Positions 8,528 to 63,795 of a DNA stretch of 64,000 nucleotides are shown here, one piece after another; positions within the stretch are counted from its first letter, which is position 1; every line of letters begins with the position of its first letter. Under the pieces are notes generated by a model. It was not told the origin of the DNA and did no database searches. It worked only from the letters and a program-made list of their open reading frames with translations. Made by a program: the position numbers and the translations under genes. Origin of the DNA: a virus; IMG/VR virus record IMGVR_UViG_3300032093_000087, positions 6,650 to 70,649 of that record; one strand, written 5' to 3'.

Positions 8528-8912
8528 GGGGGTGTTTATGGATTTGACAGGTATTGGCTGGAGAATAAGGGCATGTGGGGACTGAATTAATCCCCTTAAA
8601 AACTGATTCAGAAAACAACTGGCAATGTGCTAAACAAAATGGAAACTCTTGGTTTACTAAGAGGTTCTGAAGTTACTGTAGCTTAAGAAGTTTACGGAAA
8701 CGGGGGGTCGGTGGACATACAACCTAGCAACAGAAGTCTTTACAAAGGTGGATCACGACTGAACCCAAAATCGAGTCGTCCATTGGTTGTTGATTAACGA
8801 TGGTGAAGAACAAATTAACTATTTTGGGGTATTAGAAAATACCAACCTAAACATGTAGTCCTTACCTTACGGGGTATTATGGACGAGGGTTCGAGACCCT
8901 CCACCTCCACCA
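8528..8912 (+). ncRNA. ssrA: tmRNA
   Basis: 5' GGGGGTG...GGATTTGACAGG; 3' T-arm GAGGG-TTCGAGA-CCCTC and CACCTCC-ACCA giving the G3.U70 alanine pair; tag frame 8621-8686 after AACAACT. Confidence 0.95.
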
Positions 8913-9172: not shown

Positions 9173-9304
9173 TTTTTTTTAATTAAGTTATTAGTTTATT
9201 ATACATAATATATAGTGATTTTTTTTGTAAAAATCAAGTTTTCACATAAAAAAAAAGACAACTAATTGTTGTCTAAGTTATTTTTCCAGTAAAATTTAAA
9301 AAAA

Positions 9305-10175
9305 GGTTGAGATTACACCTGTTATTGAGAACCTTTGGAAGGATTATTGTTTCCCTTCGTATCCACCATCTTTTGAACGGTATTTCTCAGTGACGGTTAT
9401 TTAAGTGAACCACTCTTTGAGGTTTGATCTACTCTCCTATTACTTAACTCTCTCCGAGAATGCCTTCCCAGTTGATCCTTGCGAGATTAGAGGTCTTTGG
9501 TAAAAATACACTCAGACTTGGGGTCTTTATGTGCAACGAACAACTCGTTACTAGGTAGTCACCTTTCGACCAAACCTGACGGACACTTTTCCTTTCTGTA
9601 GTTTAATAATAGATTTATTACTTTCCATAAAGTTTTTGTGTCGTGGATTGTGAAAGTAGTGGTCCGTCTCGAGATTCATTATCTTTTGGACAACGAAATA
9701 CCCAACTACCCTCTGAAATGTCCCCATTTCCATACTTTAAGACTACTTCGAAACAAATCCCTTGGTAGAGATTTATTAAGGACAATTTCAGCACCACCTG
9801 TTTGTTGTCATACCTTTCGGTTTTAAGTATCCTTTAATATTGGAATACGTAATTGTAAATTTGGATAACCTACTTCTCACATAATTCCTACGGGTTATTC
9901 CTATTGGGGTTCCCCCCTCAATCAGATGACCCACATCACCTAATCATAAGATCACTTTCCCTACACCGTTGGCCTCGGTACTAAAGATCTTATGGTATCC
10001 CGCTTGTGTACTCGACCTCGATAATCCGAAGACTAACAAGACGCAAATCAATTTGACAGTTGACTCACTTTATCCCACTTTCGTGGTTTATTTAACGACT
10101 ATACACAGCCAATTATCGTTTATCAGTTCCTGGTGTTTGTCCCGAAGGATCTAACCGTACTCCTGAACGGATAAT
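9305..10175 (-). ncRNA. Large structured non-coding RNA (~870 nt), GOLLD-like candidate
   Basis: No credible ORF; many GNRA/UUCG-capped hairpins on the - strand; TAnnTTTG promoter at 10221-10228, boxA-like motif at 10186-10194, terminator at ~9248-9274. Family not confirmed. Confidence 0.65.
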
Positions 10176-16929: not shown

Positions 16930-17003
16930 TGGTCCTTGTTGGGATCGAACCAACCACCTACTGATTATGAGTCAGTTGCTCTAACCGAATGAGCTAAAGG
17001 ACC
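16930..17003 (-). tRNA. tRNA with CAT anticodon, Ile2-type
   Basis: GGTCCTTTAGCTCA...CTGA-CTCATAA-TCAG...GGTTCGATCC...GGACCA cloverleaf; CCA not encoded. Confidence 0.85.
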
Positions 17004-17007
17004 TTTG

Positions 17008-17085
17008 ATGTTAGGGTGGGATTCGAACCCACAATGAGAAACCTTTTAACAGGATTCGGCACCTAGCCTCATTACACTCCTAACA
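17008..17085 (-). tRNA. Aberrant tRNA-like element (pseudo-tRNA), anticodon unclear
   Basis: Acceptor TGTTAGG/CCTAACA and perfect T-arm GTGGG-TTCGAAT-CCCAC; D and anticodon arms irregular. Confidence 0.5.
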
Positions 17086-17226
17086 AACACGACTCTTCAG
17101 CTTTCTACTCCCAGCACCGAGGAATTGTATATAACTTAGCCCATCTCACCGCTGTGTGGGAACTGAAGTTTATCGTCTTTTTCTTATTACAAATATAAAC
17201 AAGTTAGACACTGTCTAACTTATTTG

Positions 17227-17310
17227 TACTCGGAGCCGGAGTCGAACCGGCACGGACAAATGTCCACAGGATTTTAAGTCCGGCGTGTCTACCAATTCCA
17301 CCACCCGAGC
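17227..17310 (-). tRNA. tRNA-Leu(TAA)
   Basis: GCTCGGGTGGTGGAATTGGTAGAC...CTTAAAA loop, long variable arm, TTCGA T-loop. Confidence 0.95.
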
Positions 17311-17387
17311 AAATTTATTCGTTTTTTCTTTTCCTTATGAGTAATATAAACCCAAAAAATGTAATAAATAATAATAGTTCCATATTG

Positions 17388-17459
17388 CGGTCCATCCGGG
17401 AATCGAACCCGAAGCACATCCGTGACAGGGATGTATGTTAGCCGTTACACTAATGGACC
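17388..17459 (-). tRNA. tRNA-Asp(GTC)
   Basis: Cloverleaf with CATCC-CTGTCAC-GGATG anticodon arm. Confidence 0.95.
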
Positions 17460-17607
17460 AAATAAAAGATGATAAATAACTTTATCAGGAATCTCGTCAT
17501 TTAACTTCACACACCATTAGAGAGCTGGGTATTTCTACCTATCCTTAGTGTGTACCCTTGTGAACACCTCTCCGTGTTTGTTATTTTACACTTCCTATCA
17601 TCTTTTG

Positions 17608-17689
17608 TACTCAGGGAGAGACTCGAACTCTCACGTCTTTCGACAGTGGATCCTAAATCCACCGTGACTACCAATTCCACCACCCGAGT
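17608..17689 (-). tRNA. tRNA-Leu(TAG)
   Basis: GTGGA-TTTAGGA-TCCAC anticodon arm, GTCGAAAGAC variable arm. Confidence 0.95.
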
Positions 17690-17775
17690 AAATTAGATGA
17701 GTCGTGGACTTGTGTACCACTTCTGTTCCCCTTTAAATTATTAACTAACCCTGGGTGTGGGAAAACTCATCTTAG

Positions 17776-17848
17776 AGCGGAAGAAGAGACTCGAACTCTC
17801 AACAACCTCCTTGGAAGGGAGGAGCTCTACCAATTGAGCTACTTCCGC
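17776..17848 (-). tRNA. tRNA-Gly(TCC)
   Basis: GCGGAAGTAGCTCAATTGGTAGAGC...CCTCC-CTTCCAA-GGAGG. Confidence 0.95.
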
Positions 17849-18068
17849 AAGTTGTGACTACTCCTTTGGGTTTTGTTTCGTCACATTTACGTGAATGAGG
17901 TGATCAAACCTACTAACATCACGGGTGTAAGTTTATATGTCAAACTATCTCCACAACAACATCAGTTTTTATCAACAAAACTAAAAAACGACTTGACACC
18001 TTGTAACCCCCCTTTAAAGTGTGTGTTACCATCTTCTCTCAAGTAGAACTCTACTGTATACACTCCCG

Positions 18069-18149
18069 TACTGACGGTTGGATTTGAACCAACGTTTTCA
18101 ACTTACCGCTACAGGTATGGACGATATAAGCGTCCACTGGTACGTCAGT
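18069..18149 (-). tRNA. Non-canonical tRNA-like RNA (TAT or GTA anticodon reading)
   Basis: Acceptor ACTGACG/CGTCAGT, T-arm GTTGG-TTCAAAT-CCAAC, internal hairpins TGGACG-CTTATAT-CGTCCA and TACC-TGTAGC-GGTA. Confidence 0.55.
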
Positions 18150-18156
18150 ATTTTAG

Positions 18157-18229
18157 TTGCGGGAGCCAGATTCGAACTGACGATCTCGGCTTATGAGACC
18201 GAGCGGATAACCATCTTCCACATCCCGCA
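18157..18229 (-). tRNA. tRNA-Met(CAT), initiator-like
   Basis: TGCGGGA/TCCCGCA acceptor, TCGGT-CTCATAA-GCCGA anticodon arm. Confidence 0.9.
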
Positions 18230-18249
18230 ATCTTTTCATGACCAATATT

Positions 18250-18294
18250 TCAAAGAACATTACAAAATTAAGTATAATTTATTGTATTGTCAAA
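18250..18294 (-). promoter_or_regulatory. Promoter of the tRNA cluster plus boxA-like motif
   Basis: - strand: TTTGAC (18289-18294), TAATTTTG (18263-18270), GTTCTTTGA (18250-18258). Confidence 0.6.
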
Positions 18295-18333
18295 TCGTTT
18301 CGGTTATTTTTTTTTTATAAAGTATTTATGTAT

Positions 18334-19527
18334 ATGAAATTAGTGTTAACCGAATCACAATTAGACTATATTATTGAACAAACCTTTAAACCATCATCAA
18401 GACTTAGTTCTATTGGTATTGAAAGGGTACTTAAAACTTATACTAATCCGATTTCCGATGGTTATAATTACAGATTGATTAAAACCTATTCAAACCCACT
18501 CTCTAACACTCCTAATGATTCATATGGTTTAAATGATCAAAATTATGGTAGGTTTTGGTACCAAAGATTAAACCGTACAAACTCGTTAGCCTATAGAAAC
18601 GCCACCGAATCCTGGGGTGGGGATAACTCGACGTATCCATTCATCACAAATGTCGACACAATCAATAAATTAAACATTAAGTTGTTCCCACAGTCAAGTG
18701 GATCAAAAATTGATCCGAGATTATTACCTCGACAGTCCGACACAATAGATTCAAAATATGAATATATTCCGAAACAACCTAAACAAAAACCTTATGTTTC
18801 TAACTGGAGTTGGCATGACGCTGCACCAATATTACAAGTAGCGTCACTTTTTATTCCTGTTGTCGGTCCACTTCTTGCGGTTGGTATTGGTGCGTCTGAC
18901 GCTGCCGTTTATTATTCCGAGGGAAAAAATGAGGAAGCTGCTTTATCAATGATGTTATTAGCTTTACCTGGAGTTTCAAAAATACCAGGAGTTAAGGACA
19001 TCGGTAAAGATACAATAAAGTCCATAGTTTCAAAAATAGGAACATCAAAGGTTCTGACGAAACTTGAAACTAGCACGGTAGGTAAAATCGCGAAAAACGC
19101 TAAGTCTTTAAGAGACGAGATGACTAACTTTATATCATCCACATCATCAAAACCAACTGTTCAACAATCCATGAAAGCTGGTAAATCGGAAGTTCTCAAG
19201 AAAGTTAAAGATAACATTAAATCAAATGTTTTTGGTGAATATGGTGGATTTATCACAAGACCAAAAGAAGGTTTAATTGACAATATTGTTAAATACACAA
19301 AACCATATTTAAAATCACTAAAAAGTAGGTATGGTGCTCCAGTGTCTCTTAGCAGTCTAAACTCAGTAATTAAAAGTAGTGCGGATAATAAATACCTTTA
19401 CACTAAAAACGGAACTGACATTTACTGGACAAAAGCAAAAGAAAATACCCCTTGGACTAAATTTAACCCCAGTAACAACGCAAGGGTCGCTAATGTTTGG
19501 GACAACTTACCGGTAGTTACCTCCTAA
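18334..19527 (+). CDS. Leader-family protein with hydrophobic helices (start moved from 18238 to MKLVLTESQL)
   Basis: TATTTAT motif just upstream of ATG 18334; LFIPVVGPLLAVGIG...AALSMMLLALPG hydrophobic segment. Confidence 0.7.
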   Translation: MKLVLTESQLDYIIEQTFKPSSRLSSIGIERVLKTYTNPISDGYNYRLIKTYSNPLSNTPNDSYGLNDQNYGRFWYQRLNRTNSLAYRNATESWGGDNSTYPFITNVDTINKLNIKLFPQSSGSKIDPRLLPRQSDTIDSKYEYIPKQPKQKPYVSNWSWHDAAPILQVASLFIPVVGPLLAVGIGASDAAVYYSEGKNEEAALSMMLLALPGVSKIPGVKDIGKDTIKSIVSKIGTSKVLTKLETSTVGKIAKNAKSLRDEMTNFISSTSSKPTVQQSMKAGKSEVLKKVKDNIKSNVFGEYGGFITRPKEGLIDNIVKYTKPYLKSLKSRYGAPVSLSSLNSVIKSSADNKYLYTKNGTDIYWTKAKENTPWTKFNPSNNARVANVWDNLPVVTS

Positions 19528-19579
19528 ATAAAAAAACCCGGACAAAATCCGGGCCTGTATTTGGTTATGTAAAATCCTA

Positions 19580-19861
19580 TTAATTATGAATCAGGATTTT
19601 TCTAGTCTCAACAACATCACCATTTGATTTAAATATGAACTTGTAGTTACCTGGGGGGTAATTGTGTATTGTCATTTCGTTTGTCCCAGAACAAGGAACT
19701 TTCGGGACTAATAGAGTGTCGGATGAGTACACATCAAATGTGTCCGCTTTATCCGAATCCCAGGAAAGGGTAACCTTATCCTCAGAACGGTACTCGGTAA
19801 TGTTCATTGTTTTACAGGAGAACAAAGAAAACCCAATTAAAATTAAACTGTATTTTTTCAT
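19580..19861 (-). CDS. Putative lipoprotein
   Basis: MKKYSLILIGFSLFSC lipobox. Confidence 0.65.
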   Translation of the reverse strand: MKKYSLILIGFSLFSCKTMNITEYRSEDKVTLSWDSDKADTFDVYSSDTLLVPKVPCSGTNEMTIHNYPPGNYKFIFKSNGDVVETRKILIHN

Positions 19862-19864
19862 ATT

Positions 19865-20173
19865 TTAGTTATATAAGATTTCATAGTTGTTATTGAAGAT
19901 CTCCGGTGATTTAAACCCGGTTTTTAATATCGATCTTTTTACCACAAACATTTGTTCAATTAGGTGAACACGATGGCAAAGTAACTCACTTAATGTGTTT
20001 TTCATTGACCCTTTTATTAAGTCATAATTATCAATCAACATCTCAAGTCGAATGGATAAATCAATTCCATCTGAATAAATCATGAATAGGGAATCTTGAT
20101 CATAATTATCGACTAACGTTTTGGAGTCGTGTTTGATCGAGTAAAATACGGATGAGAATACTTCGTTATACAT
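19865..20173 (-). CDS. Hypothetical protein
   Basis: ORF track; TAnnTTTG box upstream. Confidence 0.6.
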   Translation of the reverse strand: MYNEVFSSVFYSIKHDSKTLVDNYDQDSLFMIYSDGIDLSIRLEMLIDNYDLIKGSMKNTLSELLCHRVHLIEQMFVVKRSILKTGFKSPEIFNNNYEILYN

Positions 20174-20236
20174 ATCACAATAATTTAAGATTATGTGACA
20201 AATATAACTGTTTTTTTTTAATTCACAAAATTTTTA

Positions 20237-20671
20237 TTAAAAATCTTCTTCGGTTTCTTCACTATCGTAATCAAGTTGACATGATATTGGTGTGTCAATA
20301 ACCTTCCATCTACGGTGATCAATCCCCTCCGACAATTCATACTCCTCCTCATCACGTAACATTTCATCAATAATCTCATAAGTTCTTTCCAGGTGATCAC
20401 AAATATAATCCCTAACATATTCGAATGTCGGTCCGGATACTGGTAGTTCAGCTATAATCATTTCATCACCCCACTGTTCACAAACTAAAACAGACCCAAA
20501 TCTTTTAAATTCTAGATCAGTTGTTTTACTTTGAGCTATTTTAATCTTACAATTCTCACCGGTCCTTGGGTGGGTATATTTTAGATCTTCCTCAGAGTAA
20601 TTACTTTCTGAGATGACTTTTTTTATTAATTTGATTAATTCAGATTCAGTTAATCTAACTTTACGTACCAT
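20237..20671 (-). CDS. Leader-family hypothetical protein
   Basis: MVRKVRLTESELIKLIKKVISE. Confidence 0.75.
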   Translation of the reverse strand: MVRKVRLTESELIKLIKKVISESNYSEEDLKYTHPRTGENCKIKIAQSKTTDLEFKRFGSVLVCEQWGDEMIIAELPVSGPTFEYVRDYICDHLERTYEIIDEMLRDEEEYELSEGIDHRRWKVIDTPISCQLDYDSEETEEDF

Positions 20672-20810
20672 TTTGATATTTTATAATAAATATCAAGTGA
20701 TTCACTAATTTTCAACTGATGGGGGTTGGGTGTTATTAATCTCCCATAAATATTTTTGATAATCTTCAGAATTTATAAACTCTTCATGTATTTCTTGTAT
20801 GATATCTTCA

Positions 20811-21506
20811 CTACACATTGTATAAAAGTTTTATTAGTTTAACATCAATATTTGAATATTCGAATACTTCGTTCCCTCCCTGATAAAAACAACTTTCGGG
20901 GTATAACCAACTATCGTTATAAAAACCCAATGATTGGGTTATTTCTTCACGTATAGCGTCTCTAATGTCATTGTCACTATCCTGTTTTGGTAAATTTATA
21001 AAAATCCTAGATGATTTTATTTCATCCGATCTTCCGGTTTTAGTCATAAAGAACCCCTCACAATTTTTAAGTTTATTGATACGTCTTAAGTCTGGATTTT
21101 GGGATATGAAAGAATTATAATCACCAAAATAAATGGTCATATTGGACTCACTTTCATCCTTGACGACTGAAAAATTTATGGGGTCAATTAAGTCATTTAA
21201 GTCCATAATTACCCTGTTAACCTCATCCAACATGAACTGTTTATAATCCCCATGAATATAAAGTCTAACATTTTTTTTATATTTTTTTGGTGACTTACGT
21301 AGTCTTGAATTTAATTCACTTTTAAGACATATCTCATTGAAATACTTCATGGTCTCCGGATCCGAAGTGTATTTAGTCCCCTCGTCGTTTGAAGTCCTAA
21401 TGGTTTCAGTATCATTTAACATCCGATCAAACTTTCTAAAATATTTTTTAGGTGTGACCATGACAATTAAGAAACAAACGGTAAATACAATTAAAAAATT
21501 TTTCAT
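20811..21506 (-). CDS. DUF2927-like exported metallopeptidase-fold protein
   Basis: N-terminal signal/TM; REEITQSLGFYNDS...S.FY...D..LIKLLY motif. Confidence 0.65.
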   Translation of the reverse strand: MKNFLIVFTVCFLIVMVTPKKYFRKFDRMLNDTETIRTSNDEGTKYTSDPETMKYFNEICLKSELNSRLRKSPKKYKKNVRLYIHGDYKQFMLDEVNRVIMDLNDLIDPINFSVVKDESESNMTIYFGDYNSFISQNPDLRRINKLKNCEGFFMTKTGRSDEIKSSRIFINLPKQDSDNDIRDAIREEITQSLGFYNDSWLYPESCFYQGGNEVFEYSNIDVKLIKLLYNV

Positions 21507-21528
21507 TGTTATGGGTTTATTTAGTTAG

Positions 21529-21602
21529 TGATCCCGGATGGATTCGAACCATCGACCTACTGCTTAGAAGGCAGTTGCTCTATCCAGCTGAGCTACGGGA
21601 CC
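21529..21602 (-). tRNA. tRNA-Arg(TCT)
   Basis: GGTCCCGTAGCTCAGCTGGATAGAGC...ACTGC-CTTCTAA-GCAGT. Confidence 0.95.
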
Positions 21603-49037: not shown

Positions 49038-49880
49038 ATGGAGTACGTACCATCTAGTAAAATCAGAAAAGAGATACCAATACTTACAAATTCAATTAAA
49101 CGAAACGAATTAAGACTTAGTAATTTATCTAAACCAATTTCATTAATGAAGAAATTAGAAGAAAAATCTAAAGACCTGGAAGAAAGAATTGATAAGACTG
49201 TTAATGAAAAAGAAAAATCCTTACTAATTTTAGAATTAAACTTGGTAAAAAAACAAATTGACGAGACTAAAAAATTAATAACTGTCGAACTAGAAAAAGA
49301 AATGTCAGTATTACGAGGTGTAATTGAAAAACAAAAAGAGGAATTGGATTTACTTAATGTAAAATTAGAGGAATCATTAAAATATGAGGAGGAGGTTAGA
49401 GTTAGAAAAGGTATTACTGTTTGTGAAACAATAGACATTAGACCGTTTTTTCCAAATACCATCAGATTAACTATCAATAAGGGGGAGGTTGTTGAGTATC
49501 TAAGATCAATAGATACAAACACGGTATACTTAAAAATATCAACAATGGTAAATTCGGAGTCCACTAACGAGACCCCAACTAATATAAAACCTGTTGATTA
49601 TAATACAATATTTTTAAATGATGGTGGTCGTGTTATTATTGACGACAGTGTTAAGTACCCACTTGAGGAGGGGGTTAAAAATGTAATTGGGGACGCCATC
49701 AAAAACCCAGTCAATGGTTTTGGGTCTGAGACAAACTATATAAGTCAGGTTCTTAATTTTAATATGGACATTGTTATTAACCCTAGCAGTGGATTTATTG
49801 TTAGAGATGTTGATAGAAACGACGGTGATTTATCTGTCTGGGTTTTATCTAGTTCGGATGGACCAATTAAACAATTATAA
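49038..49880 (+). CDS. Coiled-coil hypothetical protein
   Basis: K/E-rich heptad N-terminal half. Confidence 0.7.
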   Translation: MEYVPSSKIRKEIPILTNSIKRNELRLSNLSKPISLMKKLEEKSKDLEERIDKTVNEKEKSLLILELNLVKKQIDETKKLITVELEKEMSVLRGVIEKQKEELDLLNVKLEESLKYEEEVRVRKGITVCETIDIRPFFPNTIRLTINKGEVVEYLRSIDTNTVYLKISTMVNSESTNETPTNIKPVDYNTIFLNDGGRVIIDDSVKYPLEEGVKNVIGDAIKNPVNGFGSETNYISQVLNFNMDIVINPSSGFIVRDVDRNDGDLSVWVLSSSDGPIKQL

Positions 49881-58619: not shown

Positions 58620-59192
58620 TTATTTTCTTCTTTTAATTTTTAGTGGTTGCCCTTTTGCTGTGTACCGGTCATAATATTGTTTAGGATTTGTCCCGTACAT
58701 TCTTGAAGCACTTTTCATACCATATTTATCTACAAAGTCATCAAATTGATCTTCACCATATTCTTCATCCTCAAACTCATCATCATTAAATTCATAATTA
58801 CCAGGTAGACCTTGTTTATTAATCCAACGCTCATTTCCGTGAGAAGCATACATATCACCTTCGTAATAATCATAATCACCTGATTTCTGTCCCTGTAGAG
58901 AAACACCTTTCCTCATTGAGTAATCAAGAAGTTCTTCCCATTGATTTAAATAATTATCCTTTTGGTCTTGATCCAACTGAGAGTCATTTTGAATTTCTTG
59001 TTCCAAATTACTTACTTCATCGTTAACATCAATAAATTCATCATAATTGTGGGTTGTTCTTACTTTATTTTTAAGTGATTTAAGTTTAGAATCGTACTTA
59101 TTATCTGGGAACATATCCATTTGATTTTCTCGAATGACACGTTTAACAAGACGTATTAAATCTGATTCTGTAAGACGTATAGTTTTTTTCAT
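58620..59192 (-). CDS. Leader-family protein
   Basis: MKKTIRLTESDLIRLVKRVIRE. Confidence 0.8.
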   Translation of the reverse strand: MKKTIRLTESDLIRLVKRVIRENQMDMFPDNKYDSKLKSLKNKVRTTHNYDEFIDVNDEVSNLEQEIQNDSQLDQDQKDNYLNQWEELLDYSMRKGVSLQGQKSGDYDYYEGDMYASHGNERWINKQGLPGNYEFNDDEFEDEEYGEDQFDDFVDKYGMKSASRMYGTNPKQYYDRYTAKGQPLKIKRRK

Positions 59193-59644: not shown

Positions 59645-59977
59645 TCAAAATTTAGGGTATGATTTCTCATCATTCCGATTATAAGAATAACCTAAATCTC
59701 TAATTTTCTTTTTTAGATCCTTAATTTCACGTTCATAAAAACCAATCTCTTGAGGGTCTATGTTCATTGAGTCATAGAAGTACAAATAATGATTTAATTC
59801 TTTTGTTAATTCATCAACCTTCTCCTTTTTGGAAAGTTCAACTGGAGTTGAGTCGTCCGGTTTTTCTTTCTTAAACATTTTGGAAATCCAATTTTCCTTA
59901 ACTTCATTGTTTTCTTCAACAATCCTTTTAATAAGTCTTGTCAACTCCGATTCTGTTAATCTTATAGTTTTTTTCAT
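59645..59977 (-). CDS. Leader-family protein
   Basis: MKKTIRLTESELTRLIKRIVEE. Confidence 0.8.
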   Translation of the reverse strand: MKKTIRLTESELTRLIKRIVEENNEVKENWISKMFKKEKPDDSTPVELSKKEKVDELTKELNHYLYFYDSMNIDPQEIGFYEREIKDLKKKIRDLGYSYNRNDEKSYPKF

Positions 59978-59986
59978 ATTGTGTAA

Positions 59987-60229
59987 TTAATCTTCCAATT
60001 TATCGGCTAACTTTTCCCATTCTTCGTGATTGCCAAATCTATCTTTATTTTCTTGTCTAAGTTTTCTCGATAATTCCTTGGGGGTATCTTCCTTAAGTCC
60101 GGTCATACGATACCCAAGTCTACTAAGTATTATACGAGCTTCCCTTTCAAGACCCTCCTTATTTTCTTTAATCACTCGTTTAACAATCCTTGTTAAATCT
60201 GATTCTGTTAATCTTATAATTTTTTTCAT
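59987..60229 (-). CDS. Leader-family protein, paralog of 54511..54753
   Basis: MKKIIRLTESDLTRIVKRVIKE. Confidence 0.85.
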   Translation of the reverse strand: MKKIIRLTESDLTRIVKRVIKENKEGLEREARIILSRLGYRMTGLKEDTPKELSRKLRQENKDRFGNHEEWEKLADKLED

Positions 60230-60248: not shown

Positions 60249-60566
60249 TTAGGACTTCCTACTCTTATCCTCAAATGACCAAAGTCTAATGATATCTGAA
60301 ACAAAACCTTTATAATCATTTACTGTTTCCTCTGGTAATTTTTTAAGGTTTATTTTTTCATCTTCAAAAAACTGATCAATTCTTGATTTAAATTCTTCAG
60401 TACTATTGGAAGTGTCAGTTATATTATAAATTTCACCAAATAATTCATCCCCAAGACGTTCCCAAGATAATCTTTCATCTCCTATACGTGGATAACCGTA
60501 TTCATTAATTATTCTTTTAACAAGTCTTGTTAAATCTCTTTCTGTAAGTCTAATAATTTTTTTCAT
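60249..60566 (-). CDS. Leader-family protein (start moved to MKKIIRLTERDL)
   Basis: Leader motif and upstream TATTTAT. Confidence 0.8.
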   Translation of the reverse strand: MKKIIRLTERDLTRLVKRIINEYGYPRIGDERLSWERLGDELFGEIYNITDTSNSTEEFKSRIDQFFEDEKINLKKLPEETVNDYKGFVSDIIRLWSFEDKSRKS

Positions 60567-60620
60567 ATTAATAAATATTATATAAAACAAAAAACCCCAC
60601 CGATGAGGTGGGGTTCGAGA

Positions 60621-60908
60621 TTATTTAACTCCTTTCATATAATACCCGACTTGACCGGTAGCGGATGAAAAAACAAATCCTTCCTTCTTTAGATGATAGA
60701 TCATTCTATTTTTAAGGGATTTATCGTAGAAGTACGTTTCATAATTATCGTTATTTGGGAATAACATAACTGAAACACAGTTACCGGTAATACCGACCAT
60801 TGATTTATAAACGTATTCGGCCGCTGAGTTCAGCTCTACAACACCAACGTACCCTTTAGACGCTTGTTCATTTAAGAACTCGGATTTAAATTTAAAGTTT
60901 TTTTTCAT
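60621..60908 (-). CDS. Hypothetical protein
   Basis: ORF track; TAnnTTTG box upstream. Confidence 0.65.
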   Translation of the reverse strand: MKKNFKFKSEFLNEQASKGYVGVVELNSAAEYVYKSMVGITGNCVSVMLFPNNDNYETYFYDKSLKNRMIYHLKKEGFVFSSATGQVGYYMKGVK

Positions 60909-60947: not shown

Positions 60948-61409
60948 TTAATTAAATAAAGGGTCAGTACTAGTTATTGAACTATGACCCAAATCGTAAC
61001 CAAAGTCAATTTCAGGACCAATATGTTCTACATTTAAACCATAAATTTTGGTAAACCAAGAGCCAATTATGTTTAATATTTCCGGAATTTCCTCCACATC
61101 AAAGTCAAAAAAATTGTCAAAAATTAACCAAGCGTGTATGTCCACCGAAATATGATTCCCTTCTTTATCGTGGACCATTAAGAGGTACCCACTATCATTT
61201 ACCAAATATGTGTAATTTGGATATTGCTCCGATTTAACCGGACGGAGATTTTTAAATAAGTTTAAAACGTCACTCAATGAACGTATGTCCATAATCTCTA
61301 TTAAACTCTCATAACCACCAATAGAGTCAACCACATGTTTTGTGTGATGACGATTAATTAATTTCCGTAAACTCCTTTTTAATTCTGTTTTTGCTGTAAG
61401 TTCTCCCAT
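60948..61409 (-). CDS. Hypothetical protein
   Basis: ORF track; TAnnTTTG box upstream. Confidence 0.65.
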   Translation of the reverse strand: MGELTAKTELKRSLRKLINRHHTKHVVDSIGGYESLIEIMDIRSLSDVLNLFKNLRPVKSEQYPNYTYLVNDSGYLLMVHDKEGNHISVDIHAWLIFDNFFDFDVEEIPEILNIIGSWFTKIYGLNVEHIGPEIDFGYDLGHSSITSTDPLFN

Positions 61410-61524
61410 TATGTAATTTTTAATTTTATTAATACTGAAAACAAATATAGTGGATATTTTTTAATTAACCAAATTTTATATCATAAAAATAATAATAAAT
61501 AAAAAACCCCACCGATGAGGTGGG

Positions 61525-61898
61525 GTTATATTTCTAGTTTCAAATAAGGATCATACACAATATATCATTTAAAAATACTGAATTATATACTGTATAATGT
61601 TGTGATTACCTTTCAAATAAGGATTATACACAATACGATGGGAAATTGTACAATTATATCCAAAGTTGTGATTACCTTTCAAATAAGGATCATACACAAT
61701 AACTTGTCCGAACATCCATAATACCATTGTGTTGTGATTACCTTTCAAATAAGGACCATACACAATGATGAAAAATTCAACATTTTGGGGACCCCAGTTG
61801 TGATTACCTTTCAAATAAGGATCATACACAATTTGGATCTAATGTTGATCTCATCATGACTGGTTGTGATTACCTTTCAAATAAGGATCATACACAAT
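61525..61898 (-). CRISPR. CRISPR array: 5 full 36-nt repeats plus 1 degenerate terminal repeat, 5 spacers
   Basis: Repeat (- strand) ATTGTGTATGATCCTTATTTGAAAGGTAATCACAAC at 61863-61898, 61797-61832, 61731-61766, 61665-61700, 61599-61634; degenerate copy at 61525-61561; unique spacers of 30, 30, 30, 30 and 37 nt; terminator directly after the degenerate copy. Confidence 0.97.
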
Positions 61899-62009
61899 GT
61901 GTATTTAGGAAACATGATAAATTGAAAGGCTCTTGTTGTCATATGAAACCCACAAAGTGAATTTCGACCACAATTAAATTGGATGTCACACCACCCAGTT
62001 TTTTGTTTC
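61899..62009 (-). ncRNA. Putative tracrRNA / omega-RNA-derived scaffold
   Basis: GCCTTTCAA (61922-61930) complementary to repeat TTGAAAGGT; ATCAT (61914-61918) to repeat ATGAT; TTGTGGT (61967-61973) to repeat 3' ATCACAA. Confidence 0.6.
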
Positions 62010-63257
62010 CTAATTTTTTAAATTGTCAAAGAACATTTTCTTACCTACGTCTCGAATGTTTAACGCTGCGTTGTAATCACGATCAATTACATTTTTACAG
62101 TTTTCACATTCCCAGACCCGGTCAGTTAAAAGTAGATTTTGATTTACCGAACCACAGTTATTACATTTCTTACTTGTGGGGTAATACCTATCCACCTTAA
62201 TTGTGTGTTTCCCGTTGGATTCACTTTTATATTCAATCATTTCACGTAACATTCCAAAACCTGAGTCCAGGATATTTCGATTTAGATTTGATTTTTGTTT
62301 TACATTTTTACCTGGGTTTTCTACGGTACCCTTATTTGATTTGGTCATTTCAACAACATCCAAATCCTCCATACAAATTAGGTCGTGCTCACCAACCAAT
62401 TTTTTAGATACATTATGAAGATAATGTTTACGACAATTAGCTATTTTCTCTTCTAAAATTCTAATCTTTTTACTTAACTTTTTCCAGTTATTAGAATACT
62501 TAACACATTTATCCCTTTTACTTTTTAATTTTGACAAATGGTTTAAATGTTTTTGTAAGTATCTTGGGTTTTCAATAACCTCATTGTCCGATGTAACGAC
62601 CAATGATTTAACACCAAGATCAATACCAACAACAGACTCAACATCAACCTTCTTGACCTCATTTACATATTCAACCATTATTGATACGTAGTACTTATCG
62701 TTTTTTCTGGAGATTGTATAGGTTTTTGGTGTACCGACAATAGGTCTATGGTATTCTACTTTAATATTACCAGTTATTTTGGGTAATGTTAACTTACCAT
62801 CTTCTTTTATTCCGTGTTTAAGTTTATTAGAACCAGTTAAATGTGTGGTGAAACTTTGTCTTGGGTGATTTTTTTTTCTAAAATCGGGAGGTGTTGGTTT
62901 TTTTAAATCTAAATTTGGATTTTTTTTAATCCTCTCGTTATATATTTTTAGTCTCTCGAAATAATTTGACCAACTACCACTTAAATATTTCATTTCGTCA
63001 AGATAAATCGTTGAGTCGTAATCATTTAAAAAGGGTGCTGATTTCCTATAGTTTGATATATGTGAGTTAAAACCAAAATGTGATAGATTTGGTTTACCAC
63101 CCAAAGAATATATTTGTCGGTCCAGGTCTATTGTTAGGTTCCTAACGTATCTAGCGGATTGTATCGCCCCCTCTATTTGTTTAATCTGGGTTTTATTGGG
63201 GTATATTCTATATTTGAACCCCTTATTAGATACTCCAACCTTTTTTTCTTTTTTCAC
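62010..63257 (-). CDS. tnpB: TnpB / Cas12f-like RNA-guided RuvC nuclease, CRISPR-adjacent
   Basis: N-terminal KGFKYRIYPN..Q; RuvC-I VGIDLG, RuvC-II CMEDL, Zn finger CNNC...CENC, RuvC-III DRDYNAALNI; all three catalytic acids present. Confidence 0.92.
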   Translation of the reverse strand: MKKEKKVGVSNKGFKYRIYPNKTQIKQIEGAIQSARYVRNLTIDLDRQIYSLGGKPNLSHFGFNSHISNYRKSAPFLNDYDSTIYLDEMKYLSGSWSNYFERLKIYNERIKKNPNLDLKKPTPPDFRKKNHPRQSFTTHLTGSNKLKHGIKEDGKLTLPKITGNIKVEYHRPIVGTPKTYTISRKNDKYYVSIMVEYVNEVKKVDVESVVGIDLGVKSLVVTSDNEVIENPRYLQKHLNHLSKLKSKRDKCVKYSNNWKKLSKKIRILEEKIANCRKHYLHNVSKKLVGEHDLICMEDLDVVEMTKSNKGTVENPGKNVKQKSNLNRNILDSGFGMLREMIEYKSESNGKHTIKVDRYYPTSKKCNNCGSVNQNLLLTDRVWECENCKNVIDRDYNAALNIRDVGKKMFFDNLKN

Positions 63258-63261
63258 AATA

Positions 63262-63293
63262 CAAATCTAGGAGTATTTTTTTTAATAGTCAAA
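63262..63293 (-). promoter_or_regulatory. Host-type promoter of the TnpB/CRISPR unit
   Basis: TTTGAC (63288-63293) and TAGATTTG (63262-63269), 4 nt before the GTG start. Confidence 0.6.
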
Positions 63294-63360
63294 TTATTTT
63301 GAAAAATTTCCAAAAATTTTTTTTCAGTATTTGGGTCTTATATAAAGAGGGGGTTCTAGT

Positions 63361-63795
63361 TTACCGGGGATAATGCTTCCTAACAAACTCATTTTTGTAT
63401 CTATCAATAATGAATTCGGAATATTCCTCCCACACCATAGTATTAAGTCTTGATATTCTATCCATGAAATAATATCTCTCATCCATGATCCGATCAAAAC
63501 AATCCGGTCGACTATATGTAAAACGGGGGTTATTCTTATCTACGTGGTTTAACATTACAGATATATTACAATCAAATAAATAATAATGGTGATCTATTAG
63601 TTTTGTGTTAATTTCCAGGTCATTCAAAACTAAGTTAACACAATTGGGGTAGGTTTTTGGAATATCCAATATATCCATTAATTTATCAATGCCCCCAGAT
63701 GATTTAATTGCGACACCAAGACCTTTTGTTTTAAGTAACTGTGAAAATAATTTTTTTAATTTCTTTTCCTGACTTTCTGTAATAATGTATTTCAT
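63361..63795 (-). CDS. Leader-family protein
   Basis: MKYIITESQEKKL; TATTTAT upstream. Confidence 0.75.
   Translation of the reverse strand: MKYIITESQEKKLKKLFSQLLKTKGLGVAIKSSGGIDKLMDILDIPKTYPNCVNLVLNDLEINTKLIDHHYYLFDCNISVMLNHVDKNNPRFTYSRPDCFDRIMDERYYFMDRISRLNTMVWEEYSEFIIDRYKNEFVRKHYPR

What the first reader, a model, noticed from the sequence alone, without database searches (positions are those of the whole stretch)
61863..62034. Two-part anti-repeat between tnpB and the first repeat: looks like an omega-RNA split into tracrRNA and crRNA
Seen on the - strand after the stop codon: ...AATTGTGGTC...CAACAAGAGCCTTTCAATTTATCATG...ATACAC, then repeat 1. GCCTTTCAA pairs with repeat TTGAAAGGT (9 bp, one G.U), ATCAT can extend the duplex, TTGTGGT pairs with the repeat 3' end ATCACAA (7 bp), and ATACAC can fold onto GTGTAT of repeat 1. 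Known: TnpB omega-RNA overlaps and follows the gene's 3' end, and Cas12f tracrRNAs use two separate repeat:anti-repeat duplexes. Inference: CAAGAGCC resembles the motif that precedes IS605 right-end hairpins, so one arm of that hairpin may now be supplied by the repeat. Scaffold, repeat 1 and spacer 1 would then form a natural single-guide RNA in cis, while later crRNAs would pair in trans.
Basis: partly seen in the sequence, partly recalled or inferred. Interest (0 to 1): 0.85.

Follow-up and report, generated by a model that had tools for sequence, protein, structure and literature searches.

The report
Phage TnpB-sized CRISPR nuclease with tracrRNA scaffold

Summary
The sequence features are real. 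A 415-aa TnpB-family gene (62010-63257, minus strand) is followed by a 111-nt spacer region, five 36-nt repeats plus a terminal half-repeat, and a terminator, in a phage fragment. Seven distinct homologous loci form one protein clade, and all seven carry the same scaffold and an array.

In the window alone, the repeat complementarity is no better than chance. Across the seven loci, four helices keep pairing, some through compensatory changes:
- a hairpin at 61980-61997;
- a stem at 61966-61973 / 61933-61940;
- the first anti-repeat at 61922-61930, pairing with repeat positions -18..-10;
- a pseudoknot between the hairpin loop TGTGA (61986-61990) and repeat positions -7..-3.

Its match to the repeat tail holds fully only in the window and L001.

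In three loci the first repeat keeps only its 3' half, so the first unit looks like an unsplit omega-RNA. RNA-library contigs bridge the gene end, scaffold and repeat 1.

The idea is already published (TranC, Cas12n, type V-U), including a phage-borne TnpB-sized example. No spacer targets, cas1 or tnpA were found. Verdict: a real system, a new member of a known kind, with a corrected RNA model.

The parts
62010..63257 (-). TnpB-family RNA-guided nuclease gene, 415 aa, with RuvC residues D213, E297 and D394 and a zinc-finger TNB domain.
   Evidence: ORF. Pfam OrfB_IS605, Cas12f1-like_TNB and HTH. NCBIfam guided_TnpB 288.9 bits against a cut-off of 100. D213, E297 and D394 are invariant in 18 clade proteins and align with the catalytic D191, E278 and D361 of ISDra2 TnpB.
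62004..62013 (-). 5' strand of closing stem H1 (TTAGGAAACA). It overlaps the stop codon TAG at 62010-62012.
   Evidence: Perfect 10-nt inverted repeat with 61905-61914 (I13). Watson-Crick runs of 10, 7, 9, 8 and 6 in W, L001, L002, L082 and L003. L003 has GGAAAT/ATTTCC, a compensatory change. The stem is absent in L083 and L004.
61980..61997 (-). Hairpin H2: stem TGGGTG/CATCCA and loop GTGTGA. Proposed equivalent of stem 1 of TnpB and Cas12n guide RNAs.
   Evidence: Predicted by RNAalifold. 97.6% of cells paired in 7 loci. Two stem positions show changes on both sides: U-A to C-G in 2 loci and G-C to A-U in 1.
61986..61990 (-). Proposed pseudoknot strand (TGTGA in the H2 loop). It pairs with repeat positions -7..-3 (TCACA; 61865-61869 in repeat 1). 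This is the likely true second anti-repeat.
   Evidence: The only site complementary to the repeat tail at a homologous place in 7 of 7 loci. All 35 cells pair; G-C becomes A-U in L083 and L004. Slid controls give 23-54%, and 21 of 500 shuffles do as well. In RdCas12n the pseudoknot strand (-168..-170) likewise lies between the two strands of stem 1 (-173..-178 and -158..-162), by the coordinates in the passages of PMC12216341.
61966..61973 (-). 5' strand of local stem H3 (TTGTGGTC).
   Evidence: Pairs with 61933-61940 (GACAACAA). The homologues have TTACC/GGTAA (L002), TTATT/GATAA (L082) and TTGTT/AACAA (L003). Changes on both sides: G-C to A-U in 2 loci and U-A to C-G in 1. As a partner of the repeat tail it pairs fully only in the window and L001; at aligned column pair 204:318, 2 of 6 loci pair.
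61933..61940 (-). 3' strand of stem H3 (GACAACAA). 61941-61965 between the two strands is a variable hairpin.
   Evidence: The enclosed hairpin differs in sequence and length between loci.
61922..61930 (-). Anti-repeat 1 (GCCTTTCAA). It pairs with repeat positions -18..-10 (TTGAAAGGT; 61872-61880 in repeat 1). The invariant AAGA at 61931-61934 precedes it.
   Evidence: RNAalifold pairs it with repeat 1, with repeat 2 and in the 7-locus alignment. 90.6% of cells paired, with 1 pair changed on both sides and 3 on one side. Per-locus duplexes end at repeat position -9 in 6 of 7 loci, and at -6 in L002.
61914..61918 (-). Extension of the repeat:anti-repeat duplex in the window (ATCAT with ATGAT of the repeat).
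   Evidence: Part of the best duplex in the window. The extension differs between loci: TTTGTGG:CCACAAA in L003, and AAATTTTGGTCT with the first half-repeat in L004.
61905..61914 (-). 3' strand of closing stem H1 (TGTTTCCTAA). It lies between the anti-repeat and repeat 1.
61538..61898 (-). CRISPR array: five 36-nt repeats, four 30-nt spacers and a last 37-nt spacer, then a terminal half-repeat (61538-61561) that keeps only the 5' 24 nt.
61505..61527 (-). Terminator-like hairpin that ends the array transcript.
   Evidence: 9 pairs, 6 of them G-C, followed by a T run.

Best explanation
This is a miniature, phage-borne type V-like CRISPR system of the TnpB-to-CRISPR intermediate kind (TranC, V-U and Cas12n-like).

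The 415-aa TnpB-family nuclease is guided by RNAs made from the DNA just downstream of its gene. The 111 nt between the stop codon and repeat 1 encode the scaffold, that is, the tracrRNA or omega-RNA body. The scaffold has:
- a hairpin (61980-61997) whose loop pairs with the last bases of the repeat (-7..-3) to give the pseudoknot common to TnpB and Cas12 guides;
- a stem that encloses a variable hairpin (61933-61973);
- an anti-repeat (61922-61930) that pairs with repeat positions -18..-10;
- in five of seven loci, a stem that joins the two ends of the scaffold.

The 3' half of each repeat plus the following spacer is the crRNA. The first unit can pair with the scaffold in cis, as an unsplit omega-RNA would. 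Later units would pair in trans.

Shown: the anatomy, its conservation in seven loci, pair covariation, intact catalytic residues, and RNA-library contigs that bridge the parts.

Inferred: that the RNAs are made and processed this way, that the protein binds them, that DNA is cut, and what the spacers target.
For: - Protein: full-length TnpB architecture with the catalytic D213, E297 and D394. The RuvC/TNB half matches RdCas12n (9j09) at E = 2.7e-50 and the whole length matches ISDra2 TnpB at 1.2e-34.
- Seven distinct loci carry the scaffold and an array: W; L001; L002; L082 (= L084, L170, L185, L186); L003; L083 (= L208, L324); L004. Their proteins form one clade with SH-aLRT 99 in a 55-row quick tree. 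The L084 row stands for L082 and was not labelled as arrayed in that call.
- In L004 the scaffold and array lie upstream of the gene, so the module works apart from the ORF end.
- RNAalifold finds the hairpin and the anti-repeat pairing unaided.
- The four-helix model pairs 95.2% of 165 cells. Six pairs change on both sides. No shuffle of 500 reaches the observed pairing or covariation score, and slid controls give 41-51%.
- First repeats keep only the 3' half in L002, L083 and L004. Identity to the consensus is 8/18, 4/18 and 4/18 in the 5' half, against 17/18, 14/18 and 18/18 in the 3' half.
- The cis fold recovers the anti-repeat stem in 6 of 7 loci.
- Contigs of 4 of 4 RNA libraries laid cover and bridge scaffold with repeat 1 (61869-62001, 61869-61990, 61869-61960). 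One bridges the ORF end with the scaffold (61962-62244).
- The register matches solved relatives. ISDra2 pairs -5..-3 with -103..-105, and its stem 4 corresponds to the Cas12f repeat:anti-repeat stem. RdCas12n pairs -4..-2 with -168..-170, extending stem 1.
Against: - In the window alone the complementarity is within chance and the single-sequence fold is unremarkable, z = -1.17.
- Only seven sequences are available. The pseudoknot covariation rests on two sister loci (L083, L004), so probably on one event, and 21 of 500 shuffles reach it. I found the pseudoknot by a post hoc scan.
- In L083 the anti-repeat pairing is A/U only and weak, -1.1 kcal/mol. L004 has a G-G mismatch inside it.
- The alignment controls can be exceeded by related sequences without any structure, as the tool warns.
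- The RNA libraries are contigs. They show no strand, no ends and no level, and they can hold DNA.
- A promoter-like site (61942-61914, 10 of 12 matches) overlaps the anti-repeat, so part of the conservation could be promoter or leader.
- No spacer target, and hence no PAM, was found.
- No adaptation genes were found.
Confidence: 0.65

Rival explanations
1. One reading: a two-part anti-repeat in which TTGTGGT (61967-61973) pairs with the repeat 3' end ATCACAA, together with GCCTTTCAA (61922-61930).
For: The 7-bp match exists in the window and in L001. It lies about 105-111 nt before the guide, close to the place of the ISDra2 pseudoknot strand at -102..-106.
Against: - In six aligned loci 71.4% of cells pair, 4 of 7 pairs break in some loci, and one pair holds in only 2 of 6.
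- L002 (TTACCGG) and L082 (TTATTCG) have no match to their repeat tails at this site.
- The same bases form a local stem with 61933-61940 that has compensatory changes.
Confidence: 0.08
2. There is no tracrRNA. The nuclease uses repeat-spacer crRNA alone. The conserved 111 nt are leader, promoter and terminator of the gene and array, and their match to the repeat is incidental.
For: - The complementarity is within chance in the window.
- Promoter-like hexamers lie at 61942-61914, and the hairpin 61980-61997 with its T-rich tail is scored as terminator-like.
- The repeat ends are themselves partly palindromic, TTGTG...CACAA.
Against: - Compensatory changes in three helices and the pseudoknot argue for RNA structure rather than protein-binding DNA motifs.
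- The anti-repeat stays at the same aligned place and pairs with the same repeat positions in 7 loci.
- RNA-library contigs run through the hairpin into repeat 1.
- The nearest solved relatives, TnpB and Cas12n, need a long scaffold.
Confidence: 0.15
3. An ordinary mobile IS200/IS605-type tnpB with its own omega-RNA happens to sit beside an unrelated CRISPR array.
For: The protein scores as a TnpB (IS200_TnpB 262 bits, below the cut-off of 425). TnpB genes are common in phage contigs.
Against: - All 7 clade loci have arrays whose repeats co-vary with the scaffold.
- There is one copy in the 70.6-kb record.
- No Y1 transposase is found in 5 phage records.
- The covariance model of the scaffold finds nothing at E below 0.1 in 197 other loci; 198 were searched, one of them the model's own L004.
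Confidence: 0.03

Closest known systems
TranC (transposon-CRISPR intermediates; Jin et al., Cell 2025). The paper is not held. I know it only through passages in PMC13565253 and bioRxiv 10.64898/2026.03.27.714800. Includes the phage-borne CauTranC9.
   Same: - A TnpB-derived effector next to a small CRISPR array, without cas1, cas2 or cas4.
- The guide is explained as a transposon right-end RNA split into tracrRNA and crRNA.
- Clade 9 is described as averaging 414 aa, found in a Caudoviricetes genome, with 5 repeats and no enlarged domains. Here the protein has 415 aa, there are 5 full repeats, and the host is a phage.
   Different: - Clade 9 repeats are given as 38 bp; here they are 36 nt.
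- I could not compare sequences, because supplements are closed and the Cell paper is not held. Membership of a named clade is therefore open.
- The solved LaTranC (9jfo) matches only residues 257-408 at E = 3.8e-16, so this is not that clade.
- The preprint says a consistent tracrRNA structure was found in only two TranC clades, shown as clades 3 and 11 in its Figure 1e-f. A covariation-backed scaffold for a TnpB-sized phage clade may therefore add detail.
Cas12n (type V-N, formerly V-U4), e.g. RdCas12n, PDB 9j09 (passages of PMC12216341)
   Same: - It is the best solved match: residues 176-413 at E = 2.7e-50. This includes the insertion TKSNKGTVENPGKNVKQKSNLNR, which ISDra2 TnpB lacks.
- The guide has a pseudoknot between the bases just before the guide and a strand between the two halves of stem 1, then a repeat:anti-repeat stem. 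This is the same layout as the model here.
   Different: - RdCas12n has 540 aa and an enlarged recognition lobe. The N-terminal half here does not match it (5.8 bits) and is of TnpB length.
- The Cas12n tracrRNA overlaps the ORF and a disordered C-terminal tail. Here the scaffold starts at the stop codon.
- The PAM is unknown here.
ISDra2 TnpB with its omega-RNA (IS200/IS605 OMEGA system; passages of PMC10097598)
   Same: - Full-length protein match at E = 1.2e-34 with the same three catalytic residues.
- The RNA order is the same: pseudoknot, stems, hairpin and guide, with the hairpin just before the guide. In L083 and L004 the first unit still folds as one continuous hairpin.
   Different: - No tnpA and no sign of mobility.
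- Five guides in an array instead of one.
- In the window the two strands of the last stem are 41 nt apart and can lie on separate RNAs.
Cas12f (type V-F) with tracrRNA
   Same: - A miniature effector, an array without adaptation genes, and a tracrRNA with two contacts to the repeat.
- A 501-aa Cas12f-like gene in another huge phage (G004) uses repeats with nearly the same 3' half, TGAAAGGTAGTCACAAC.
   Different: - NCBIfam Cas12f2 scores 76.6 bits against a cut-off of 450.
- The G004 protein shares only 32% identity over 65 residues with the window's protein.

Membership tests
TranC / type V-U (TnpB-derived CRISPR effectors) | TnpB-like effector with an intact RuvC triad | tested here: met
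   D213, E297 and D394 are conserved and align with D191, E278 and D361 of ISDra2 TnpB.
TranC / type V-U (TnpB-derived CRISPR effectors) | Evolutionarily conserved adjacency to a CRISPR array | tested here: met
   7 of 7 distinct clade loci have an array, 6 downstream and 1 upstream. The clade has SH-aLRT 99.
TranC / type V-U (TnpB-derived CRISPR effectors) | Scaffold RNA (tracrRNA) with an anti-repeat derived from the right-end or omega RNA | tested here: met
   Met by computation only. RNAalifold and pair counts support it. RNA-library contigs bridge scaffold and repeat 1. RNA ends and binding are not shown.
TranC / type V-U (TnpB-derived CRISPR effectors) | RNA-guided DNA cleavage with CRISPR RNA | not testable with these tools
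   Needs an interference or PAM-depletion assay.
TranC / type V-U (TnpB-derived CRISPR effectors) | Placement in one of the published clades (for example clade 9) | not tested
   The Cell paper is not held and supplements are closed. Only lengths and repeat numbers could be compared.
Cas12n (type V-N) | Sequence membership over the whole protein | tested here: inconclusive
   The C-terminal half matches 9j09 at 2.7e-50. The N-terminal half does not match.
Cas12n (type V-N) | tracrRNA overlapping the ORF and a disordered C-terminal tail | tested here: not met
   The protein ends 12 residues after the NIRD motif. The conserved scaffold begins at the stop codon. In L004 it is detached from the gene.
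Cas12n (type V-N) | A-rich PAM | not testable with these tools
   No protospacer was found.
IS200/IS605 TnpB with omega-RNA (mobile OMEGA element) | TnpB domain architecture | tested here: met
IS200/IS605 TnpB with omega-RNA (mobile OMEGA element) | Transposon context: tnpA or several copies | tested here: not met
   One copy in the 70.6-kb record. No Y1_Tnp in 5 phage records, although the control genomes gave matches. The records are fragments of 8-100% completeness.
IS200/IS605 TnpB with omega-RNA (mobile OMEGA element) | One omega-RNA with a single guide at the element's end | tested here: not met
   Five repeat-spacer units follow the scaffold.
Cas12f (type V-F) | Family model score | tested here: not met
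   CRISPR_Cas12f2 scores 76.6 bits against a cut-off of 450.

The most novel reading that the evidence does not exclude
This phage clade may preserve successive stages of the split of an omega-RNA into tracrRNA and crRNA within one family.

In L083 and L004 the first unit is still an unsplit omega-like hairpin: anti-repeat, loop, half-repeat, guide. Full repeats follow it. In the window and four relatives a 40-nt insert with an end-joining stem separates the two strands. A TnpB-sized nuclease would then use one hard-wired cis guide and several trans guides from a single transcript.

The same repeat 3' module also serves a 501-aa Cas12f-like effector in another huge phage. Huge phages may therefore be where such guide modules arise and are exchanged.
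Probability: 0.3. Interest if true: 0.7.

Novelty: new member of a known kind. Interest (0 to 1): 0.5.

Why it matters
The system is among the smallest CRISPR-associated nucleases (415 aa) and sits in a large phage. That fits the recent view that CRISPR type V arose many times from TnpB by splitting its guide RNA.

What this work adds is a scaffold model backed by covariation: hairpin-loop pseudoknot, local stem, anti-repeat and end-joining stem. It also adds natural variants in which the first unit is still in one piece. Together these give concrete positions for compensatory mutagenesis and for building a short single guide.

The general idea, and a phage-borne TnpB-sized example, are already published. 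The finding is therefore confirmatory rather than new in kind.

Tried and rejected
- Single-sequence tests did not support the pairing.
- The leader hairpin ATACAC:GTGTAT pairs in 65.5% of cells, and 135 of 500 shuffles do as well. By eye it is kept in W, L001 and L082 only.
- GTTCTT (62029-62034, inside the ORF) with AAGAGC (61929-61934) pairs in all 36 cells. It shows no change on both sides, and the partner is missing in L004. I leave it open.
- The Cys-Gly codons TGTGG about 146 nt before the stop also match the repeat tail in 5 loci. They are fixed by coding, and there is no ORF upstream of the scaffold in L004. I rejected this site as the main partner.
- More clade members were sought in viral contigs with two scaffold motifs. 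They returned only contigs already known, or sequence identical to L082.
- Genome contigs gave nothing above 33% identity.
- The covariance model R1 was run on 198 loci, one of them the model's own L004. It gave only weak hits elsewhere: L339 at E = 0.16 and L238 at 0.34. On five phage records it again found only the known scaffolds strongly. No unsplit ancestral omega-RNA was found.
- Spacer targets were sought with the window array against the phage collection. The best hits were E = 0.4 over 27-30 nt.
- The window array against five handles, of which three records were held and searched, and against its own record gave only A/T-rich partial matches. Examples are 22 of 24 nt at window 49599-49622 and 87% over 30 nt in G002.
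- 22 nt of spacer 3 against viral contigs gave 0 matches.
- The arrays of L001, G004 and L003 against five records each gave repeat-to-repeat matches only.
- In the RNA-library contigs nothing was laid on 61300-61670 or 62279-63400, and contig ends near 62001 and 62244-62278 differ between runs.
- My array detector missed L004 and L083, so I give no rate of arrays among the other loci.
- The careful tree did not finish. The quick tree is reported. Its rows were the 55 best tblastn scores of 279 ORFs, after dropping identical sequences and lengths outside 330-520 aa.
The supplements of the 2026 preprint and the Cell 2025 paper could show whether this clade is already named.
- Papers:
  - Jin et al. 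2025: nothing seen.
  - PMC13565253: passages.
  - bioRxiv 10.64898/2026.03.27.714800: passages.
  - PMC10097598: passages.
  - PMC12216341: passages.
  - PMC10691335: passages.
  - bioRxiv 10.1101/2025.09.28.678669: listing, and a term search with no hits.
  - Literature searches.
Full report
**What is there.** On the minus strand a 415-aa ORF (62010-63257) ends in TAG. It is followed by 111 nt, then five 36-nt repeats (ATTGTGTATGATCCTTATTTGAAAGGTAATCACAAC). The spacers are 30 nt, with a last one of 37 nt. A terminal half-repeat keeps only the first 24 nt, and a hairpin-plus-T-run terminator lies at 61505-61527.

The ORF has the full TnpB architecture: Pfam HTH_OrfB_IS605, OrfB_IS605 and Cas12f1-like_TNB, and NCBIfam guided_TnpB at 288.9 bits. 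Residues D213, E297 and D394 are invariant in 18 relatives. They align with the catalytic D191, E278 and D361 of ISDra2 TnpB.

The window is a piece of a virus record of 70,649 bases, estimated 24% complete. It also holds a GOLLD RNA, a tmRNA and seven tRNA genes. The setting is therefore a large phage.

**Checking the observation.** Two of them (ATCAT:ATGAT and ATACAC:GTGTAT) compete for two bases of the repeat.

Taken alone they are not beyond chance in this 31% G+C DNA. The best duplex between the 111 nt and the repeat is -17.5 kcal/mol. It is reached by 16.6% of 1000 dinucleotide shuffles and by 9.3% of 5060 other windows. Folding 61833-62060 gives z = -1.17 and a different structure. Any claim must therefore rest on related loci.

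**Related loci.**
- A protein search found 19 clusters at 44-99% identity, then a drop to 38%.
- I could fetch DNA for seven distinct members: W; L001 (78%); L002 (58%); L082 (55%, identical in L084, L170, L185 and L186); L003 (46%); L083 (45%, the same contig as L208 and L324); and L004 (41%).
- All seven have the scaffold and an array.
- In L004 the scaffold and array lie upstream of the gene, detached from its 3' end.
- In a quick IQ-TREE of 55 TnpB rows the seven form one clade with SH-aLRT 99 on a stem of 0.52. The L084 row stands for L082 and was not labelled as arrayed in that call.
- Nothing above 33% identity was found in 185,579 species genomes.
- No Cas1 and no Y1 transposase was found in five of the phage records, while the control genomes gave matches.

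**RNA structure.** RNAalifold, given no hint, pairs RCCTTTCA with TGAAAGGT of the repeat. It does so with repeat 1 in one alignment and with repeat 2 in another. It also predicts the hairpin TGGGTG-GTGTGA-CATCCA and a stem closing a variable hairpin.

On the seven-locus alignment:
- the hairpin pairs in 97.6% of cells, with two positions changed on both sides;
- the local stem pairs in 94.3%, with G-C to A-U in two loci and U-A to C-G in one;
- the anti-repeat stem pairs in 90.6%, with one pair changed on both sides and three changed to wobble pairs.

The local stem is TTGTGGTC/GACAACAA in the window, TTACC/GGTAA in L002, TTATT/GATAA in L082 and TTGTT/AACAA in L003.

A further stem joins the stop-codon region to the bases just before repeat 1. 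Its Watson-Crick runs are 10, 7, 9, 8 and 6 in five loci. L003 has GGAAAT/ATTTCC in place of GGAAAC/GTTTCC. The stem is absent in L083 and L004.

**The second anti-repeat.** As a partner of the repeat tail it pairs fully only in W and L001. 71.4% of cells pair, and four of seven pairs break in some loci.

I scanned each locus for any match to the last eight bases of its own repeat. One site recurs at the same place in all seven: the loop of the hairpin. TGTGA (61986-61990) pairs with TCACA (repeat -7..-3). In L083 and L004 the loop reads TGTAA and the repeat TTACA.

All 35 cells pair. Slid controls give 23-54%, and 21 of 500 shuffles do as well. The two changed loci are sisters in the tree, so this is probably one event, and the site was found after the fact. 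I rate it likely, not shown.

The full model (hairpin, pseudoknot, local stem, anti-repeat) pairs 95.2% of 165 cells. Six pairs change on both sides, and no shuffle of 500 reaches its pairing or covariation score.

The geometry agrees with solved relatives:
- In ISDra2 omega-RNA, -5..-3 pair with -103..-105 and stack on stem 1. The hairpin just before them corresponds to the Cas12f repeat:anti-repeat stem.
- In RdCas12n, -4..-2 pair with -168..-170. By the published coordinates these lie between the two strands of stem 1.

**Cis and trans.** In L002, L083 and L004 the first repeat matches the consensus in only 8, 4 and 4 of 18 positions of its 5' half. In its 3' half it matches in 17, 14 and 18 of 18. 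In W, L001 and L002 the last unit keeps only the 5' half.

The working unit is therefore the 3' half-repeat plus spacer. The first unit needs no 5' half.

Folding from the invariant AAGA to the end of repeat 1 recovers the anti-repeat stem in 6 of 7 loci. In L004 it is an 18-bp hairpin. In L083 it is a weak A/U hairpin with a 9-nt loop, like the last stem of an unsplit omega-RNA.

The duplex extension differs from locus to locus, together with the inner repeat sequence: ATCATG:TATGAT in W and TTTGTGG:CCACAAA in L003.

**RNA data.** Twenty runs hold the stretch or a part of it, six of them RNA libraries. I laid four of the RNA libraries, from four studies, as contigs.
- Contigs cover and bridge repeat 1 with the scaffold: 61869-62001 at depth 15.7, 61869-61990 and 61869-61960.
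- One contig bridges the scaffold with the ORF end (61962-62244).
- Others cover array units.
- Two runs carry a 1-nt deletion at 61919, between the anti-repeat and its extension.

Contigs give no strand, ends or level, and such libraries can hold DNA.

**Comparison with what is known.** The splitting hypothesis was stated in 2023. According to two papers that cite it, it was shown experimentally for TranC systems by Jin et al. 2025. I could not read that paper.

A 2026 preprint reports a TnpB-sized TranC clade 9. It averages 414 aa, has 38-bp repeats and 5 repeats, comes from a Caudoviricetes genome, and has spacers that match phages. The preprint says a consistent tracrRNA structure was found in only two TranC clades, shown as clades 3 and 11 in its figure legend.

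Altae-Tran et al. 2023 list 40 V-U branches with downstream arrays and describe half-repeats next to a tracrRNA.

The best solved match here is RdCas12n for the C-terminal half (E = 2.7e-50), and ISDra2 TnpB over the full length. LaTranC matches only weakly.

The system is thus a member of a known kind. I cannot say whether it belongs to an already named clade.

**Function.** No protospacer was found in any search. The target and the PAM are unknown. By analogy with other phage-borne arrays, competing phages or other mobile elements are the likely targets. That is inference only.

**Verdict.** The finding is real and its central reading is right in outline. One of its two pairing sites is misplaced, and the concept is already published. 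Interest 0.5; new member of a known kind.

Noticed in passing
window 9304-9713 (-), 8528-8912 (+), 16930-21602 (-): GOLLD RNA (328.5 bits), a tmRNA (108 bits) and seven tRNA genes in the same phage fragment.
   Followed up: no
window 58620-59192, 59645-59977, 59987-60229, 60249-60590 (all -): Four neighbouring small ORFs start with nearly the same 20 residues (MKK[TI]IRLTE[SR][DE]LTR[LI][VI]KR[VI]I...) and then diverge. They form a paralogous family of unknown function.
   Followed up: no
window 61505-61527 and about 60595-60620 (-): The same terminator hairpin sequence (CCCCACCTCATCGGTGGGG plus a T run) occurs twice, after the array and after the ORF at 60621-60908.
   Followed up: no
L345 (G004:358600-362603) and L339: A 362,603-bp phage record has a 501-aa Cas12f-like gene (L345:1946-3451, P0121). 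It is followed by about 250 nt and an array of at least 18 repeats. The 3' half of these repeats (TGAAAGGTAGTCACAAC) is almost that of the window. The array runs over both ends of the record, so the 'direct terminal repeats' and '100% complete' label may be an assembly effect of the array.
   Followed up: partly
L346, L338 and L347 (G005: about 43.5 kb, 56.2 kb and 63.0 kb): A 128-kb phage record holds three small arrays with the same repeat tail (…GGTAATCACAAC). No adjacent effector or scaffold was found. Its TnpB homologue (30% identity) lies 3.6 kb from the nearest array, next to tRNA-like sequence.
   Followed up: partly
L218 = L341 (G006:21796-22911 and downstream): A separate TnpB (379 aa, 31-35% identity) in a 183-kb phage record is also followed by an array. 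Its 38-nt repeats end in GTTGCATTGAAAC. This may be a second, independent TnpB-array pairing in huge phages, and its repeat length is the one reported for TranC clade 9.
   Followed up: partly
window 62026-62034 (-): GTTCTTTGA inside the last codons of the gene is identical at the DNA level in 6 of 6 loci, at 45-78% protein identity. It is complementary to AAGARC just before the anti-repeat. No covariation is seen, and the partner is absent in L004.
   Followed up: partly
window 61919: A 1-nt deletion variant appears in contigs of two RNA libraries (X15, X17), in the unpaired stretch between the anti-repeat and its extension.
   Followed up: no
window 61974-61980 (-): The A/U-rich stretch AATTTAATT right after the hairpin is nearly invariant in 7 loci and is unpaired in my model. 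In RdCas12n a strand after stem 1 forms a triple helix with it. Whether the same holds here is untested.
   Followed up: no
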